Of a stretch of DNA of 64,000 nt, positions 18,250-49,349 are shown in pieces. The stretch's first letter is position 1. Each line of letters opens with the position of its first letter. A program made the position numbers and the translations under genes. The notes beneath the pieces are model-generated. The model was not told the origin of the DNA, made no database searches, and saw nothing but the letters and a program-made list of their open reading frames with translations. The stretch is taken from contig CAXXDN010000001.1 in assembly GCA_963667465.2 (NCBI GenBank), positions 928,001 through 992,000 on the forward strand, given 5' to 3'. This DNA is from Dehalococcoidia bacterium (GTDB taxonomy: Bacteria; Chloroflexota; Dehalococcoidia; UBA2979).

Positions 18250-18520
18250 TTTCGAGGGCGCACCCAACTCCCGATGCGGGTCCGGCCCCCTCTCCCCTTG
18301 CGGGAGCGGGCCGGGGATGAGGGGCGAGAAGCGGCGGCCGGCGCGAGCTTTCGAGGGCGCAACTCCCGATGGCGGATCCGGCCCCCTCGCCCCTTGCGGG
18401 AGCGGGGGGGGGTGAGGGCGAGAAGCGGCGGCCGGCGCGAGCTTTCGAGGGCGCAACTCCCGATGGCCGATCCGGCCCCCTCGCCCCTCGCCCCTTGCGG
18501 GAGCGGGCGGGGGTGAGGGG
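18250..18520. repeat. Three tandem ~95-bp units, each carrying a REP-like palindrome (BIME-like cluster)
   Basis: Units start TTTCGAGGGCGCA at 18250, 18349 and 18443; each contains CCGGCCCCCTC.CCCCTTGCGGGAGCGGG...TGAGGG; lies between convergent genes. Confidence 0.85.
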
Positions 18521-23003: not shown

Positions 23004-24878
23004 CTACTCCTCGAGCCGCACGCCGTCGGAGTGCCAGCGCAGGTACTCGGCGCTCGCCCAGCCCTCGAGGCCGTCGTCCGTGCGGAGGTGCAGCCAGGGT
23101 TGCGGGTAGAGGACGAAGTCGTCCGTTTCGGCGACGGCCCCGTTCGGGAGGCAGGCGAGGGTCGGCGCGTCGAGCGAGGCCTTCTCGCGGAGGTTCAGGC
23201 ACGGATCGGCGACGACCTCGACCAGGAGCTGGTCGTCGAAGGGCGGCTGCTCGATTATTGGCGCGAGTGGCAGAGGCGGATACACGTTGAGACCTTCCTG
23301 CGAGTGGAAAAAGGTCGTTCGCACAAGCAGAGTGCCGCCGGTGGCGCCCAGCGCGGCGCGTTCCTGCCGAGCGAGGAACGGCTGCCAAGGAGGATCGGGG
23401 ATGGGCGCGCTGGGATCCCCGAAGGAGATGGATGCGAGCACATCCCCGGCCCGATTCACAACCTGCGGGGGGTAAAGGGAGAAGAAGCGGTCTCGGTCGT
23501 CCGGGGAAGGCCATCCAGGCGCCTGCTCCCATGTCCCCCGGAGCGTGGCGATTCGTGGGCCGCGGTGCGTGCCTACCACGATTCCGGAACTGCCGGCGAG
23601 CCACACGCCAGCCACGTCACCATGAACTCCGAACTCGGCGAGCCCGAATGAATAGACGCTCTTGACTCGCAGGATCTCCTCGCCCGTCGTTGCGTCGAAG
23701 ATCGACGAGATCCTGTCGTCGGCGAGCACGCTCGATGTCGCGGCAGCAAGCATGCGCCCGTCCGCAGAAATCCGCGGGAAGAGGCCTCCCCACGATCCAG
23801 GGATCGGACTCAGGCACCGTATCGTACTGTCGGACAGGAGCGTGCCCCTGAGGTCATAGCGAACCACGCGGCAGGTCACATTGCCGGTATCGGCGATGAA
23901 TGCAACGAGGTCGTCCAGGGGATCGACTTGATAGAGGATTTCCCCTGTCTTGTGAGCCGGGACCGTCTTCCACGGAAGTACCCACGAGTGGACCTCGGGG
24001 TTGGCCTCGTCCTCGAGGTTCACGAGGTGAAAGCGATCGCCCGGCTCACACTCGACGCACTCACGGACGAGGATGTAGCCGCCGCTGGGGCTGGTGAAGC
24101 GCTAGCCGGCCGGAAGATCGAGCTGCGCCACGGGCCGCAACTCGGCGTCCATCGCCACGAAAGCGCCGGAGCTCGCGAGGCGGAAGAGCAGCCGCTCGTC
24201 GGGTCCGGTTCCCCACCATAGATCGAACTCAATCCTGCTCCGATCCCACGTGTACGTGCGCCCGGTCTGCCGGTCGTGCAGGACTCCCTGGCCCGCCCAA
24301 CTCACGAAGCGATTGCTCGGCGAGGCATCGAGGTCGTCGGCGGCGTTCCGGGCTGCTTCGCGCTCCCTCTCCGGCAGGGCGGCGAGCGAGCGCACCCACG
24401 CCTCCACTTCGCCCGTCGCCACGTCGAGCAGGAACAGGCCAGGGTCCCACGGCGCCTCCTCGCCTGCCTCGTAGCGAGCGTGCGTGAGGCCGGCCGCCGC
24501 CAGCGCCTCGGCGGTGTTGACCTCGCGGATGCTGAGGTCCTCGGCGGTGATCAGCGGCGCCGGGGTTGCGGTCGGCGTGGGCGACGGAGTTGGCGAGGGC
24601 GTCACGGCTGGTGTCGGTGCGGGCGCGGGCGTTGTGGTTGGCGTGGGAGTGGCTGCCGGCGATGCGACGGTCGTCGGAGTTGGCGAGGGCGTCGTGGTGG
24701 GAGTCGGAGCTGGAGGTGCCTCGGGCGTGGGTGTCGGCGTCGCGGCGGGCGAGGCTGCCGCGGGCGGCGGGGGCTCCTCGGGCCCGCCGTCGCACGCCGC
24801 CAGACCGGCCGCGAGCGAGAGCGCGAGGACGGCCGCGAGCAGGGGTGGCAGCGAGCGTCGCGTGCGGTGTACGAGCAT
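23004..24878 (-). pseudogene. Surface lipoprotein with Pro/Thr-rich linker and C-terminal SH3b-like domain, interrupted by one in-frame TAG (24102-24104)
   Basis: Lipobox LAAC, PT repeats; ORFs 24102-24878 and 23004-24023 share a frame and join through PAG*RFTSPSGGYILVR...; C-terminus CLNLRE...W.HLRTDDGLEGWASAEYL. Confidence 0.75.
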
Positions 24879-24983
24879 CGCGGTCCCCTCCCCGGCTACC
24901 TGAGGTTAGACGACTGTCTCGGCGTGATGGTTCCGGCGAGCGGCAGGGTTCGTCCCTCAGGAGCCTGTCGTGGGTTCGGCGAG

Positions 24984-25001
24984 CCCCCTCACCCCCGCCC
25001 T
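24984..25001 (+). repeat. Left half of a REP-like element split by IS110
   Basis: CCCCCTCACCCCCGCC-CT; the stretch CCCCTCACCCCCGCCC is identical to the reverse complement of the third tandem unit (~18505-18520). Confidence 0.85.
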
Positions 25002-25009
25002 AATGGGGT

Positions 25010-25205
25010 TCGACCGGACCCTGGAGCGATCTGGGAGACTGGTCTTGGACCGGCCGGCCGGTGAGCACTGCCCCTCCCCGAGACACTGCGATCTCCAGGG
25101 AGAGACCGTGCCCCGGCTGGTGCGTCCGGGTGGTCCACAGCACTCCTGGGGTGTCGTGCCCGAGAGCACTGGTCCATTAGGCCGTCGCAGGACCAGCCCG
25201 GCAGG
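25010..25205 (+). ncRNA. Bridge RNA (target-binding loop ~25047-25127, donor-binding loop ~25126-25201); ends approximate
   Basis: Guides CCCCTCCC (25071-78) and GGGAGAG (25098-104) match the target; GGGGTGTC (25148-55) and CCATTAG (25174-80) match the donor junction; each pair flanks an inner hairpin and is closed by outer stems. Confidence 0.85.
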
Positions 25206-25244
25206 TCGCAAACAGCAGCACGAAGCGCAGGAAAGCGAGGCACG

Positions 25245-26468
25245 ATGACCCTCTACGTCGGTGACGACTGGTCCGAAGACCACCACGATGTCCAGCTCAT
25301 GAACGAGGCCGGCGAACGGCTCGCCGCCAGGCGGCTGCCCGAGGGCGTCGCGGGCGTCGCCGTGCTGCACGAACTGGTTGCCGAGCACGCCTCAGACCCG
25401 GGCGCGGTCGTGGTCGGCATCGAGACCGACCGCGGACCCTGGGTCACGGCCCTGCTCGCGGCCGGCTACCGCGTCTACGCGATCAACCCCCGCTCGGCGG
25501 CGCGCTACCGTGAGCGTCACCACCTGGGCGGCGCCAAGTCCGACGCCGCCGACGCGAAGCTGCTCGCCGACCTCGTGCGCACCGACCGCCACAACCACCG
25601 TCCGCTGGCCGGCGACAGCGACGAGGCTGCCGCGGTGCGCATCCTCGCCCGCGCCCACCAGCAGCTGATCTGGGACCGCGTGCGCCAGACCAACCGGCTG
25701 CGCAACGCCCTCAGGGAGTATTTCCCGGCTGCCCTGCAGGCCTTCCCCAGCCTCGCGCACGGCGACGCCCTGGGCGTGCTGGCGCGGGCGAGCGAGCCGC
25801 GCGAGGCGGCGCGCCTGAGCACGTCGAAGATCCGCTCGGCGCTGCGCCGCGGCGGACGTCAGCGCAACCTCGAGCGGCGCGCCGCCGCGGTGCGCGACGC
25901 GCTGCGCTCCCCGCAACTCGAGGCGCCGCCTGCCGTGAGCCGGGCGTTCGCCGCGAGCACCCGCGCGGCGGTCGCGCAGATCAGCGAGATCAACCGTCAG
26001 CTTACGGAGCTCGAGGCCGCGCTCACGAGCCATTTTGAGCAGCACCCGGACGCCGCAATCTACCGTTCCCTGCCCGGTCTCGGTGTCGTGCTCGGCGCCC
26101 GGGTGCTCGGCGAGTTCGGGGACGACCCCGAACGCTACGAGTCGGCGAAGTCCCGCAGGAACTACGCCGGCACCTCGCCGCTCACCGTAGCATCGGGCCG
26201 CAAGCGCAGCGTGCGCGCCCGCTTCGTGCGCAACCGCCGGCTCGCCGACGCCGTGGACCGCTGGGCGCTCTGCTCGCTGCAGGCGAGCCCCGGCTGCCAT
26301 GACTTCTACCACCGCCGCCGCGCCGCGGGCGACCTCCACCACCAGGCGCTGCGCGCTCTCGGCAACCGCCTCGTCGGCTACCTCCACGGCTGCCTGAAGG
26401 CACGTCGCCCCTACGACGAGGCCACCGCCTGGGCGCACCGCCACGACCGCGAACAGCTCGCCGCTTGA
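25245..26468 (+). CDS. IS110 DEDD recombinase/transposase
   Basis: YVGDDWSEDHHD, VGIET, KSDAADA (DEDD RuvC-like domain); SLPGLG, YAGTSP...SG (Tnp-domain catalytic Ser), ALGNRL. Confidence 0.95.
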   Translation: MTLYVGDDWSEDHHDVQLMNEAGERLAARRLPEGVAGVAVLHELVAEHASDPGAVVVGIETDRGPWVTALLAAGYRVYAINPRSAARYRERHHLGGAKSDAADAKLLADLVRTDRHNHRPLAGDSDEAAAVRILARAHQQLIWDRVRQTNRLRNALREYFPAALQAFPSLAHGDALGVLARASEPREAARLSTSKIRSALRRGGRQRNLERRAAAVRDALRSPQLEAPPAVSRAFAASTRAAVAQISEINRQLTELEAALTSHFEQHPDAAIYRSLPGLGVVLGARVLGEFGDDPERYESAKSRRNYAGTSPLTVASGRKRSVRARFVRNRRLADAVDRWALCSLQASPGCHDFYHRRRAAGDLHHQALRALGNRLVGYLHGCLKARRPYDEATAWAHRHDREQLAA

Positions 26469-26491
26469 CGCCTTAGCACCCTGGGGTGTCT
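26465..26491 (+). promoter_or_regulatory. -35 half of the IS110 circle-junction promoter
   Basis: TTGACG (26465-70) overlaps the transposase stop; joined to the left end it gives TTGACG-N18-TCTAAT upstream of the bridge RNA. Confidence 0.65.
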
Positions 26492-26513
26492 CTCCCCCGG
26501 GAGAGGGGGCCGG
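26490..26513 (+). repeat. Right half of the REP-like element split by IS110
   Basis: CT-CTCCCCCGGGAGAGGGGGCCGG matches the right half of other REP copies in the window. Confidence 0.85.
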
Positions 26514-26641
26514 AGAGGGGAGGCGGCGGCCGGGTGCGGCGATGTGACTTCAGGAGCCGGTCGTGGGTCTGGCGCACGCGCAGCGCGTAGTATCGGAGCG
26601 CTGGCTGGCGGCGCGCGACGGACGTGGCGAGGAACGGCGAG

Positions 26642-28939
26642 ATGACGACAACCGAACGACCCCCGGTGAGCAGCGGCTATGCCGTCGTCGGCACGCGGCC
26701 GGTGCGCCACGACGGCTCGGAGAAGGTCACCGGCGAGGCCCGCTACGGAGCCGACATCCGGCTGCCCGGCATGCTCCACGGGAGAATCCTGAGGAGCCCG
26801 CACGCCCACGCGCGCATCAGGTCCATCGACACGAGCCGGGCGGAGGCGCTCCCCGGCGTGTTCGCCGTGATGACCTCGGCAGACGTCCCGATCATCGGCG
26901 ATCAGGCTCTCGACCTGGCGCTCGTTCGCGGAAACATGCGGTTGATGGCCGAGCACGTCATGGCCCACAGGACGGCCCTGTACAAGGGCCACGCGGTAGC
27001 GGCGGTTGCTGCGAATAGTCCCCACGTCGCCGAGGACGCCCTGGCGCTGATCGAGGTGGACTACGAGGTGCTCCCGGCGGTCCTTTCGCTGGCCGAGGCC
27101 ACGGCCGCCGGCGCGCCGATCATCCACGAGGACCTGACGACCTTCTTCAGGCTCGCGCGCTTCGCCCGGGGGGACGACACCGGGGTGCGCGGCAATGTCG
27201 CCTCCCACATCCAGCACAAGCTCGGCGATGTCGAGGAGGGCTTCCGGCAGGCCGATGTGGTCGTGGAGCGGGAGTTCTTCACGGAGACCGTCCACCAGGG
27301 CTACATCGAGCCGCACGCGGCCACGGCCACCTGGGCGCGTGACGGCCGCCTCACCGTCTATACCTGCACGCAGGGGGCCTTCCCGATCCGCGCGGCCACG
27401 GCCGCGATGTTGGACCTGCCCGAGTCGATGGTGAAGGTCGTGCCGACCGAGATCGGCGGTGGGTTCGGGGCCAAGCTCGTGGCGTACGTGGAGCCCGTCG
27501 CCGCGATCCTCTCCCGCAAGAGCGGCCGGCCCGTGCAGGTGGTGATGACCCGCAAGGACGTGTTCGAGGGCACCGGACCTGCCTCGGCGACCCAGGCGCG
27601 CACGAAGATCGGCGCGACCCGGGATGGCAGGATCACCGCCGCCCAGGTCACGCTGACCTTCGAGGCCGGCGCCTTCCCCGGCTCGGCCGTCGGCGGGGGC
27701 ACGCTCTGCGCCACCGGTCCCTACAACATCGAGAATCTCCTTGTCGACGGCTACGACGTGGTGGTCAACAAGAACAAGACGCAGGCCTACCGCGCGCCGG
27801 GACAGCCGCAGGGCGCCTTCGCCGTCGAACCCGTCATCGATGAGCTCGCGGAGCTGCTGGGCATCGACCCCCTCGAGTTCCGGCTCCTGAACGCCGCCAG
27901 ACAAGGCGACCGCATGCCCAACGGTGTTATGCACCTCCGCCTGGGCATCGAGGAGCTGGAAGCGGCGATGAAGGCCCACGACCACTACAACGCGCCGCTC
28001 GGCGGCCCCAACCGCGGGCGAGGCGTGGCCGTCGGCTTCCGCTGGCAGGGAGGTCAGAGCTCAGCGGCGACGATCCACGTGAACAGCGATGGCACGATCA
28101 ACCTCGTCACCGGCTCGGTGGACATCGGAGGCTCACGCACCGCCGTGGCGATGCAGGCCGCCGAGGTGCTGGGCCTGAGCGCCGAGGATGTGACGCCCAC
28201 GGTGGTCGACACCGACACGATCGCGCTCACCGGCGCCACCAGCGGCAGCCACACGGCCTTCGACACGGGCCTCGCGGCGATCGAGGCGGCGCAGGAAGTG
28301 ATCCGGCAACTGGGCACGCGGGCGGCGGCGATCTGGGAGGTCGACGAGCGAGACGTGACCTTCGAGGACGGCACGTTCAGCTGCGCCGGGAATCCGGCGC
28401 TGAAGTTGACGTTCAGGGAGCTGGCGGCCGAGTTGCCGGGCAGCGGCGGCCCGGTGACCTGCTCGGTCTCGGTCCCGACCACGGGCGTCGGCCCCGTCAT
28501 CGCGGGCAACATCGTGGACGTCGAGGTCGACCCTGCGACCGGCAAGGTGCAGATCCTGCGCTACAGCGCGTTCATGGACGTGGGCACGGCGGTGCATCCC
28601 AGCTACGTCGAGGGCCAGATCCAGGGCGGCACCGTGCAGGGTATCGGCTGGGCGCTGAACGAGGAGTATTGCTACGACGCCGAGGGGGCGATGCTGAACA
28701 GCAGCTTCCTCGACTACCGGATGCCGACCACGCTGGACATCCCGATGATCGATGCGGTCATGATCGAGGTGCCCAACCCCCAGCACCCGTTCGGCCTGCG
28801 CGGCGTCGGCGAAGCCTCGATCATCCCGCCGCTCGCCGCCGTCGCGAACGCGGTATCGAACGCCATCGGCGTGCGCATCAACCGGCTGCCGATCACCCCC
28901 GGCGCGGTCCTCGACGCGATTGAGTCGAAGGACGGCTAG
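26642..28939 (+). CDS. Xanthine dehydrogenase family molybdopterin-binding large subunit
   Basis: KVTGEARY, RSPHAHARI, HQGYIEPH, IGGGFGAK, AYRAPG, VEGQIQGGTVQGIG, RGVGE. Confidence 0.92.
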   Translation: MTTTERPPVSSGYAVVGTRPVRHDGSEKVTGEARYGADIRLPGMLHGRILRSPHAHARIRSIDTSRAEALPGVFAVMTSADVPIIGDQALDLALVRGNMRLMAEHVMAHRTALYKGHAVAAVAANSPHVAEDALALIEVDYEVLPAVLSLAEATAAGAPIIHEDLTTFFRLARFARGDDTGVRGNVASHIQHKLGDVEEGFRQADVVVEREFFTETVHQGYIEPHAATATWARDGRLTVYTCTQGAFPIRAATAAMLDLPESMVKVVPTEIGGGFGAKLVAYVEPVAAILSRKSGRPVQVVMTRKDVFEGTGPASATQARTKIGATRDGRITAAQVTLTFEAGAFPGSAVGGGTLCATGPYNIENLLVDGYDVVVNKNKTQAYRAPGQPQGAFAVEPVIDELAELLGIDPLEFRLLNAARQGDRMPNGVMHLRLGIEELEAAMKAHDHYNAPLGGPNRGRGVAVGFRWQGGQSSAATIHVNSDGTINLVTGSVDIGGSRTAVAMQAAEVLGLSAEDVTPTVVDTDTIALTGATSGSHTAFDTGLAAIEAAQEVIRQLGTRAAAIWEVDERDVTFEDGTFSCAGNPALKLTFRELAAELPGSGGPVTCSVSVPTTGVGPVIAGNIVDVEVDPATGKVQILRYSAFMDVGTAVHPSYVEGQIQGGTVQGIGWALNEEYCYDAEGAMLNSSFLDYRMPTTLDIPMIDAVMIEVPNPQHPFGLRGVGEASIIPPLAAVANAVSNAIGVRINRLPITPGAVLDAIESKDG

Positions 28940-28994: not shown

Positions 28995-29067
28995 TCCCCA
29001 GGAGAGGGGGCCGGACGGGAGCGAGCGCCCTCTCCCCCGTCCGCTCCCCAGGAGAGGCGGCCGGAGG
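28995..29067. repeat. REP-like pair between convergent genes
   Basis: TCCCCAGGAGAGG.GGCCGGA occurs twice; same family as the IS110 target REP. Confidence 0.7.
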
Positions 29068-49166: not shown

Positions 49167-49228
49167 CGATCGAGGCTAGCAGCCCGGCGAGCAAGGGGCG
49201 GCGAGCGCCTCTCCCACCTCCGAGGATT

Positions 49229-49266
49229 CCGGCCCCCTCTCCTGGGGGAGCGGTCGGGGGTGGGGG
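49229..49266. repeat. REP-like element (IS110 target family)
   Basis: Reverse complement CCCCCACCCCCGACCGCTCCCCCAGGAGAGGGGGCCGG closely matches the reconstituted IS110 target. Confidence 0.75.
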
Positions 49267-49349
49267 AGGTGTGCGCCGGAGTTCCGAGGGGCAACGAGCG
49301 TTCGCCGCGCGCCGCCTACCCGTCCCGCTCCGCGTATTAGGATGGAGCC

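What the first reader, a model, noticed from the sequence alone, without database searches (positions are those of the whole stretch)
24984..26513. IS110 targets a host REP-like repeat, and only the CT-core variant is occupied
Removing the IS restores CCCCCTCACCCCCGCC-CT-CTCCCCCGGGAGAGGGGGCCGG, a member of the repeat family also found at 18280-18520 (3 copies), ~29028-29064 and 49229-49266. All five empty full-length copies have CG at the position equivalent to the core (e.g. CCCCTCACCCCCGCC-CG-CTCCC), while the occupied copy has CT. Inference: the element uses intergenic REPs as safe landing sites, as IS621 does in E. coli, and core-variant REPs are poor targets. This could reflect repeat-versus-guide coevolution.
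Basis: partly seen in the sequence, partly recalled or inferred. Interest (0 to 1): 0.7.

Follow-up and report, generated by a model that had tools for sequence, protein, structure and literature searches.

The report
Bridge-RNA insertion sequence in host repeats
This is an ordinary, recently active IS110-type mobile element that uses its own guide RNA to land in a short host repeat; the contrast between CT and CG repeat copies that drew attention comes from looking at only one window.

Summary
A 1,488-bp IS110-family element (window 25002-26489) sits between two CT dinucleotides inside a REP-like palindrome, and an IS-free sister genome carries the same repeat uninterrupted, with a CT core, at the same locus. 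All 10 full copies in the genome are flanked by CT, and 9 of 10 copies are identical. Eight of them split the repeat's left arm, one its other arm, and one sits beside a repeat.

The left end encodes a bridge RNA. Its target loop (LTG CCCCUCC-CC, RTG GGGAGAG) fits the repeat, and both guides change together with the flanks across related elements.

The CT-versus-CG contrast does not hold genome-wide:
- Of 148 repeat copies, 120 have a CT core (111 of them empty) and 23 have CG.
- Zero CG hits among the occupied copies is what chance would give (P about 0.2).
- Occupancy instead follows match to the LTG: 9 of 98 sites with 5 or more matches are occupied, against 0 of 396 with 4 or fewer.

That CG-core copies are poor targets is expected from work on IS621, but it is not shown here. 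Coevolution of repeat and guide is not supported.

One point remains unexplained. CG copies are derived, and 21 of the 23 lie on one contig.

Verdict: a new member of a known kind, of low interest.

The parts
24983..24999 (+). Left half of the split REP-like repeat. The last 7 bases (24993-24999, CCCCGCC) are the left target (LT).
   Evidence: nhmmer hit on the IS-excised genome, 41.6 bits. Continuous with the right half in G001.
25000..25001 (+). Left copy of the CT core dinucleotide
   Evidence: CT flanks all 10 copies on both sides, and all 44 related copies read at both ends.
25002..26489 (+). IS body, 1,488 bp. With one CT core, the element is 1,490 bp.
   Evidence: 10 full copies of identical length. 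Nine are identical and one differs by 1 base.
25002..25244 (+). Non-coding left end (243 nt) that encodes the bridge RNA
   Evidence: Alignment of 19 distinct left-end variants. Consensus fold, with paired positions that change together.
25071..25079 (+). Left target guide (LTG), CCCCUCC + CC, on the 5' side of the target-binding loop. It has the same sense as LT plus the first core base.
   Evidence: Changes together with the left flank across variants. Occupancy of 494 candidate sites follows its complementarity.
25080..25095 (+). Inner stem-loop of the target-binding loop (GAGA / UCUC)
   Evidence: 0 non-pairs in 19 variants. Two of the 4 pairs show compensatory changes.
25098..25104 (+). 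Right target guide (RTG), GGGAGAG. It is complementary to the top strand CT+CTCCC.
   Evidence: Changes together with the right flank: CACGAAG with CT-TCGTG, ACGUAG with CT-ACGT, AUGAAG with CT-TCAT.
25145..25155 (+). Left donor guide (LDG), CCUGGGGUGUC. It has the same sense as the IS right end plus the first core base.
   Evidence: 11 of 11 bases match 26480-26490. The base at -9 (A or C) agrees with the right end in 11 of 19 variants.
25156..25169 (+). Inner stem-loop of the donor-binding loop (GUGC / GCAC)
   Evidence: Invariant in 19 variants, so it is uninformative for covariation.
25174..25180 (+). Right donor guide (RDG), CCAUUAG. It is complementary to CT+AATGG of the left end.
   Evidence: Read from the sequence. 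Invariant in 19 variants, as is the left end.
25245..26468 (+). Recombinase gene, 407 aa
   Evidence: PF01548 at 6.9e-38 and PF02371 at 7.1e-11. NF033542 scores 185.8 bits against a cut-off of 140. Intact in all 10 copies.
26465..26470 (+). TTGACG, a candidate -35 box overlapping the stop codon. In the circular form it lies 18 nt upstream of TCTAAT, which spans the junction. This is inferred.
   Evidence: Read from the sequence. TTGAC is kept in 43 of 44 related copies. No sigma-70-like site is found in the integrated state.
26490..26491 (+). Right copy of the CT core dinucleotide
26492..26515 (+). Right half of the split repeat. RT is CTCCC (26492-26496), followed by the loop and the 3' arm GGGAGAGGGGGCCGGA.
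18281..18520 (-). Array of three empty repeat copies, all with a CG core
   Evidence: The positional orthologues in G001 have CT.
29026..29066 (+). Weak empty repeat copy with a CG core
   Evidence: 19.3 bits and 12.6 bits.
49227..49268 (-). Empty repeat copy with a CG core
   Evidence: 24.7 bits. The same intergenic gap in G001 holds six CT copies.

Best explanation
Window 25002-26489 is one of ten nearly identical copies of an IS110-group insertion sequence.

What it encodes:
- A DEDD/Tnp recombinase.
- A bridge RNA with two internal loops, in its 243-nt left end.
- The donor loop (LDG CCUGGGGUGUC, RDG CCAUUAG) matches the element's own joined ends.
- The target loop (LTG CCCCUCC-C, RTG GGGAGAG) matches CCCCNCC-CT-CTCCC. 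That sequence is the 5' arm of an abundant intergenic palindromic host repeat.

How it moves: recombination at the shared CT core inserts the circular form and leaves CT on both sides. The circle itself, its junction promoter (TTGACG, 18 nt, TCTAAT) and the strand-exchange chemistry are inferred from IS621, not shown here.

Which repeats are occupied: this is set by complementarity to the guides, and by the fact that only a small share of good sites has been hit so far (7 of 49 strict sites).

CT versus CG: CT is the normal core of this repeat. The CG copies are a derived minority. They are expected to be refractory, but they are too few for their emptiness to count as evidence.
For: Family:
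- Pfam PF01548 and PF02371.
- NCBIfam NF033542, 'IS110 family RNA-guided transposase', above its cut-off.

Copies:
- 10 full copies, all 1,488 bp and all flanked CT...CT.
- Nine identical, one with 1 substitution. ORFs and guides are intact in all.

Empty site: G001 has the uninterrupted repeat with a CT core at the orthologous locus.

Guides, from 19 distinct left-end variants of 45 copies in 9 genomes:
- The RTG changes with the right flank in 4 specificities: GGGAGAG/CTCTCCC, CACGAAG/CTTCGTG, ACGUAG/CTACGT, AUGAAG/CTTCAT.
- The LTG changes with the left flank: CAACAAC-CU/CAACAAC-CT, and UGGCUCC-CU/CGGCTCC-CT. The second of these is the other arm of the repeat.
- The stems around the target loop pair in all 19 variants and show compensatory changes.

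Prediction test, on 494 sites reading N7-CT-CTCCC in the IS-excised genome. Occupancy by LTG match:
- 7 matches: 1 of 1.
- 6 matches plus a wobble: 1 of 3.
- 6 matches: 5 of 45.
- 5 matches plus a wobble: 1 of 5.
- 5 matches: 1 of 44.
- 4 or fewer: 0 of 396.
- Other-arm sites 0 of 58, against left-arm sites 7 of 49, p = 0.003.

Host repeat:
- 141 of 148 hits lie outside a crude coding mask that covers 71-75% of the contigs.
- G001 has 99 sites without the IS.

Core: all 54 copies read at both ends have CT on both sides.
Against: - No RNA data: no RNA run holds the stretch, so the bridge RNA and its ends are predicted.
- phmmer found no solved relative, IS621 included. The catalytic residues D7, E60, D100, D103 and the SG motif were placed by eye only.
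- The LTG mismatches the majority repeat at position -3 (U against G). The base opposite the second core position is not complementary in the LTG or the LDG, unlike the IS621 description.
- One of the 10 sites (C2:1583213) has CT-AACCC on the right and is not itself a repeat hit.
- The LE fold of a single sequence is no better than shuffles (z = -0.54). Support for structure comes from the alignment only.
- The donor-loop outer stem is weak: 13 and 3 non-pairs at its two outermost pairs.
Confidence: 0.85

Rival explanations
1. One reading: the host repeat and the IS guide coevolve. CG-core copies are escape variants that spread because they cannot be hit.
For: - CG copies are never occupied: 0 of 23.
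- They are derived. All 15 repeat hits in the syntenic 80 kb of IS-free G001 are CT (14) or TT (1), including the three positional orthologues of the window array.
- Their share is higher in G000 (11 of 60 strict sites) than in G001 (3 of 102) or in five IS-bearing relatives (11 of 193, p = 0.006).
Against: - Zero hits is what chance gives (P = 0.20-0.22).
- Five relatives that carry 8-11 copies of the same IS family have CG counts at the level of the reversed-pattern control.
- 21 of 23 CG copies sit on one contig, although IS copies are split 5 and 5. This fits local gene conversion better than selection.
- Selection per site from a rare insertion event should be very weak (inference).
- 111 CT copies remain empty.
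Confidence: 0.05
2. The core plays no role in site choice. CG copies would be used as readily as CT copies and are empty only by chance.
For: - Counts are compatible with this (P about 0.2).
- In this clade the LTG and LDG do not pair with the second core base.
Against: - The RTG and RDG pair with both core bases in all 19 variants.
- All 54 copies have CT at both junctions. By the IS621 cleavage geometry, an insertion into a CG site should leave CG at one junction (inference from passages of PMC11208158).
- In IS621 the second core T is nearly invariant and is contacted by the protein.
Confidence: 0.08
3. The recombinase recognises the repeat hairpin directly, as a protein-DNA or structure match, and the left-end loops are incidental.
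For: - The target lies in the 5' arm of a hairpin.
- A preprint reports that a target stem-loop adds specificity for ISPpu10 (abstract and section 7 of 10.64898/2026.03.19.712850).
Against: - Related elements with other loop sequences sit in non-repeat targets that match those loops (G015, G012, G022).
- Within the repeat, the arm used follows the LTG.
Confidence: 0.02

Closest known systems
IS621 of Escherichia coli (IS110 family, IS110 group)
   Same: - DEDD plus Tnp recombinase.
- Long left end carrying a bridge RNA with target and donor loops.
[quoted passage not shown]
- CT core on both sides, and a REP target.
- A -35 box in the right end, so that a promoter forms only at the circle junction.
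For IS621 these points come from passages of PMC11208160 and PMC11208158.
   Different: - Too distant for phmmer to link to the solved IS621 chains.
- The RTG is 7 nt, against 4-7 in IS621.
- The LTG and LDG are not complementary to the second core base.
- The host repeat is unrelated, and the host genome has 71% G+C.
ISPpu10 and ISPpu9 of Pseudomonas putida (IS110 family)
   Same: - Multiple copies, all in REP sequences.
- Targets almost all intergenic: 97.1% reported for ISPpu10, and 141 of 148 here.
- The target is part of a stem-loop.
Sources: section 7 of 10.64898/2026.03.19.712850; for ISPpu9 only the search listing of PMC12288879.
   Different: - In ISPpu10 the stem-loop lies 5' of the core and involves LT. 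Here the core and RT form the 5' arm of a hairpin that lies 3' of the core.
- No role of the hairpin was tested here.
IS1111 group of the IS110 family
   Same: The same recombinase family and site-specific insertion.
   Different: From recall, not from a call: the IS1111 group carries its guide RNA in the right end and has subterminal inverted repeats. Here the right end is 21 nt and the guides are in the left end.

Membership tests
IS110 family insertion sequence | [quoted passage not shown] | tested here: met
   E = 6.9e-38, residues 5-161, full profile length.
IS110 family insertion sequence | C-terminal Tnp domain (PF02371) with a conserved serine | tested here: met
   Domain at E = 7.1e-11, residues 273-356. 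NF033542 scores 185.8 bits against a cut-off of 140. The serine (ASG motif) was placed by eye only.
IS110 family insertion sequence | No long terminal inverted repeats. Flanked by a short core (CT) rather than a longer target duplication. | tested here: met
   The ends read AATGGGGTT... and ...CTGGGGTGT, which are not inverted. CT is on both sides in 10 of 10 copies, and in 44 of 44 related copies.
IS110 family insertion sequence | Bridge RNA with a target-binding and a donor-binding loop whose guides match the flanks and the ends | tested here: met
   Covariation across 19 variants, stems and the occupancy gradient. Expression was not tested.
IS110 family insertion sequence | Circular intermediate with a junction promoter | not testable with these tools
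   Only candidate hexamers were found (TTGACG, 18 nt, TCTAAT across the junction). Contigs laid from four runs gave no circle junction.
IS110 group (as opposed to IS1111 group) | Guide RNA in a long left end, with a short right end | tested here: met
   Left end 243 nt holding both loops, right end 21 nt. The criterion itself is recalled.
REP (repetitive extragenic palindromic) sequences | Short imperfect palindrome, more than 100 copies, intergenic, often in arrays | tested here: met
   148 hits of about 45 nt. 141 of 148 lie outside the coding mask. Arrays have spacings of about 95 and about 143 bp.
REP (repetitive extragenic palindromic) sequences | Associated RAYT (Y1 transposase, PF01797) in the genome | tested here: not met
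   No match in G000, which is 93.6% complete. The control search found the family in 6 of 14 named genomes. Hence 'REP-like'.

The most novel reading that the evidence does not exclude
In this lineage a T-to-G change at the core-equivalent position has spread directionally through repeat copies on one replicon.
- 21 of the 23 CG copies lie on contig C1.
- At all five places in the window, the IS-free sister genome has CT.
- The resulting copies should be refractory to an IS that has just burst to ten identical copies.

If the spread is driven by the IS, this would be a natural case of a host repeat escaping an RNA-guided recombinase. The drive could be selection. It could also be conversion that favours repeat copies the IS cannot split.
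Probability: 0.05. Interest if true: 0.6.

Novelty: new member of a known kind. Interest (0 to 1): 0.25.

Why it matters
It matters little as a discovery. That IS110 elements land in REPs, that bridge RNAs set the site, and that the core is CT are all in print for IS621 and ISPpu10.

It has some use as a natural data set. One genus holds at least five guide specificities of one IS lineage, with their sites. This includes a switch between the two arms of the same palindrome, and an occupancy gradient that follows guide match within one genome.

The replicon-biased CG variant of the repeat is a small open question about how such repeats evolve.

Tried and rejected
- Rfam search of 24900-26600 at E up to 1 found no bridge-RNA family. 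It found only Ms_AS-4 antisense inside the ORF and a sub-threshold guanidine-II hit.
- The single-sequence fold of the left end was no better than shuffles, so I used the alignment instead.
- PDB sequence search found nothing at E = 0.001 and only chance hits at E = 10. Catalytic residues were therefore not mapped formally. I did not build a deeper profile.
- Sequencing runs: no RNA holder was listed.
- Contigs of X1, X2, X5 and X6 laid on 24800-26700 gave 'joints' across the IS with sides of only 23-24 letters and extra letters between them. These are other repeat copies, not an empty allele. In X1, X2 and X5 contigs run from the flank into the IS at the left junction. In all four runs they do so at the right junction. 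No circle junction was seen.
- I rejected the idea that the repeat derives from the IS: the ends of the IS do not resemble it, and G001 has 99 sites without the IS.
- I rejected the idea that CG copies are excision scars. By the IS621 cleavage geometry a scar would alter LT positions 6-7, not the core (inference).
- The CT-AACCC right flank: I looked for the orthologue of the G000 case. G001 had no match, and the flank proved to be the end of another multi-copy element (5 places in G009). This is unresolved.
- Position -3: sites with a non-G base are occupied 3 of 5, against 4 of 44 for G (p = 0.017). This is suggestive, but the numbers are small and the test is post hoc, so I make no claim.
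- Supplementary files of the papers were not opened. Supplementary tables of PMC11208160 may list this element or its guides.
- One literature search for repeat escape or coevolution found 9 papers holding at least 3 of the 4 terms, of which 8 were listed. None treats core-variant REPs. I made no wider search.
Full report
**What is at the coordinates.** The window reads ...GAGCCCCCTCACCCCCGCC-CT up to 25001. A 1,488-bp insert follows, running from AATGGGGTTCGACC... to ...CCCTGGGGTGT (25002-26489). Then comes CT-CTCCCCCGGGAGAGGGGGCCGGAG. The insert has one long ORF (25245-26468, 407 aa). That ORF carries both IS110 domains: PF01548 at 6.9e-38 and PF02371 at 7.1e-11. It also passes NCBIfam NF033542, 'IS110 family RNA-guided transposase', with 185.8 bits against a cut-off of 140. 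I could check it directly. The sister genome G001 has flanks 83-93% identical at this locus and no copy of the IS. At the orthologous place it has the repeat uninterrupted...GAGCCCCCTCACCCCCGCC-CT-CTCCCCCAGGAGAGGGGGCCGGAGG.

**Copies.**
- The window lies in a 2.97-Mb genome of two contigs with 71% G+C.
- It holds 10 full copies, each 1,488 bp and each flanked by CT on both sides.
- Nine are identical and one differs by one base. All ORFs and all four guide segments are intact. The spread is therefore recent.
- An eleventh copy is cut by the end of contig C2. It lies in a 3.8-kb, 99.6% identical duplicate of C1:4027-7802, so it is not an independent insertion.

**The repeat.** I removed the ten copies (plus one CT each) in a script and searched the genome with a profile of the repeat.
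- This gave 148 non-overlapping hits at E up to 0.01. The consensus is GGCCCCCTCACCCCCGCC-CT-CTCCCGCGAGGGGAGAGGGGGCCGGA.
- 141 of the 148 lie outside a crude GC3-based coding mask that covers 71-75% of the contigs. All ten insertion points lie in non-coding gaps of 227-2,177 bp.
- The repeat occurs in arrays.
- It does not depend on the IS. G001 has 99 perfect 14-mer sites and no IS, while G006 and G013 have neither.
- No RAYT gene (PF01797) was found in this genome, which is 93.6% complete. 'REP-like' is therefore the right word.
- Eight insertions split the 5' arm of the repeat in the orientation of the model. One (C1:862860) uses the equivalent CT on the other arm. One (C2:1583213) lies 60 bp from a repeat, at the end of another multi-copy element.

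**The CT/CG claim.**
- In the window the five empty copies do read CG and the occupied one CT.
- Genome-wide the picture reverses. There are 120 CT copies (9 of them occupied, counting the other-arm case, and 111 empty), 23 CG, 2 CC, 1 TT and 2 with a gap.
- The chance that nine insertions thrown at random on 143 CT or CG copies all fall on CT is 0.20. With the strict 14-mer CCCCNCC-NN-CTCCC it is 0.22: 49 CT, of which 7 occupied, and 11 CG.
- In five relatives that carry the IS, empty CT sites number 30, 35, 41, 40 and 36. CG sites number 0, 5, 1, 4 and 1. That is no more than the reversed-pattern control, which gave 4, 4, 2, 1 and 5.
- Multiplying the G000, G009 and G014 probabilities gives 0.055. 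This is post hoc and the genomes are related.
- So 'only the CT variant is occupied' is true (10 of 10 here, 44 of 44 related copies read at both ends). But it is what both the majority rule and the mechanism predict. The window was an unrepresentative sample.

**The guide RNA.** I fetched 45 loci with related copies (81-92% identical) from eight genomes.
- Three copies lacked an end anchor and were dropped (L062, L073, L075).
- The remaining 44 copies plus the window copy gave 19 distinct left ends.
- The alignment shows the architecture described for IS621 in passages of PMC11208160: two internal loops, each with a 5' side of the same sense as the left half-site and a 3' side complementary to the right half-site.
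- In the window the LTG is 25071-25079 (CCCCUCC+CC), the RTG 25098-25104 (GGGAGAG), the LDG 25145-25155 (CCUGGGGUGUC) and the RDG 25174-25180 (CCAUUAG).
- The RTG changes with the right flank: CACGAAG with CT-TCGTG in G015, ACGUAG with CT-ACGT in G012, and AUGAAG with CT-TCAT in G022.
- The LTG changes with the left flank: CAACAAC-CU with CAACAAC-CT. UGGCUCC-CU goes with CGGCTCC-CT in G011, G012 and G017, which is the other arm of the same palindrome.
- The stems around the target loop pair in all 19 variants, and four pairs show changes on both sides.
- The inner stem of the donor loop is invariant. Its outer stem is only partly supported.

**A test of the guide reading inside this genome.** Among 494 sites that read N7-CT-CTCCC (a perfect RTG match), occupancy falls with LTG match.

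| LTG match (of 7) | Occupied / sites |
|---|---|
| 7 | 1 / 1 |
| 6 plus a wobble | 1 / 3 |
| 6 | 5 / 45 |
| 5 plus a wobble | 1 / 5 |
| 5 | 1 / 44 |
| 4 or fewer | 0 / 396 |

The 58 other-arm sites are all empty, against 7 of 49 left-arm sites (p = 0.003). This explains which repeats are used far better than the core does.

**Is a CG core a poor target?** I expect so, on three grounds, none of them a test.
- The RTG and RDG pair with both core bases in all 19 variants, so G at the second position would face an A.
- For IS621 the second core T is 'almost invariant' and is read by a main-chain amide. Pairing to the CT core is strongly preferred (passages of PMC11208158 and PMC11208160).
- The IS621 cuts fall after T9 on the top strand and between 9* and 10* on the bottom strand. 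With those cuts, an insertion into a CG site should leave CG at one junction. None of the 54 copies shows this. This is my inference.

**Differences from IS621.**
- The base after the first core position is G in every LDG, and C, U or A in the LTGs. The 5'-side guides therefore seem to pair with only the first core base.
- The LTG of this genome's element has U at -3 where most repeats have G. Relatives have G there.

**Promoter (inferred).**
- TTGACG (26465-26470) overlaps the stop codon.
- In a circle it would lie 18 nt before TCTAAT, which is made of the last base of the IS, the core and the first three bases of the IS.
- TTGAC is kept in 43 of 44 related copies.
- No sigma-70-like site is found in the integrated arrangement.
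- IS621 likewise forms its promoter at the junction.

**Coevolution.** The guide clearly differs between related elements and follows the repeat. I found nothing that shows the repeat responding. There is, however, an unexplained pattern.
- The CG state is derived. All 15 repeat hits in the syntenic 80 kb of G001 are CT or TT, including the three positional orthologues of the array at 18281-18520.
- It is over-represented in this genome: 11 of 60 strict sites, against 3 of 102 in G001.
- 21 of the 23 CG copies lie on contig C1, while CT copies split 61 and 59 (p = 0.0002). The IS copies split 5 and 5.
- The G001 array copies pair a CT left arm with a GGGAGCGGG right arm, and the G000 copies show the reverse combination.
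- This looks like a T:A / G:C polymorphism of one stem pair shuffled by conversion. I think local gene conversion is the likelier cause.

**Verdict.** This is an IS110-group bridge-RNA element in its usual kind of landing site. It is well supported, newly described as far as I can tell for this lineage, and mechanistically ordinary.

Noticed in passing
Genome-wide; window 18281-18520, 29026-29066, 49227-49268: CG-core repeat copies are derived relative to sister genome G001. 21 of the 23 lie on contig C1, while CT copies split 61 and 59. The array copies in G001 and G000 carry opposite mixed states of one stem pair (T with C, against G with A).
   Followed up: partly
G000 C2:1583213-1584700; L031, L038, L050: Four of 54 insertion sites read CT-AACCC instead of CT-CTCCC to the right of the IS. 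AA is also the first two bases of the IS left end. No empty site of that form exists in G000. The G000 case abuts the end of another element that has 5 copies in G009.
   Followed up: partly
window 26069-26150 (-): Rfam Ms_AS-4 ('Actinobacteria sRNA') matches at 65.1 bits (gathering score 50), antisense and inside the recombinase ORF. Many model pairs are non-standard, so the family probably captures a conserved coding stretch of IS110 recombinases.
   Followed up: no
G000 C1:1-8000 and C2:1885000-1904564: Both contig ends are dense in repeats and IS copies. They share a 3.8-kb, 99.6% identical inverted duplicate that includes part of an IS copy, so the assembly may break here for that reason.
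   Followed up: partly
L066-L071 (G015): Five of six copies of the G015 variant share near-identical flanks on both sides. They appear to sit inside another repeated unit rather than at independent sites. The sixth (L068) has a different left flank that fits the LTG better.
   Followed up: no
window 25071-25079 against genome sites: Strict sites with a base other than G at position -3 are occupied 3 of 5, against 4 of 44 with G (p = 0.017). The only site that matches the LTG perfectly (CCCCTCC) is occupied.
   Followed up: partly
window 24102-24878 (-) and 26624-28939 (+): The occupied repeat lies between two divergently oriented ORFs, so the IS sits in a probable promoter region rather than at gene ends.
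   Followed up: no
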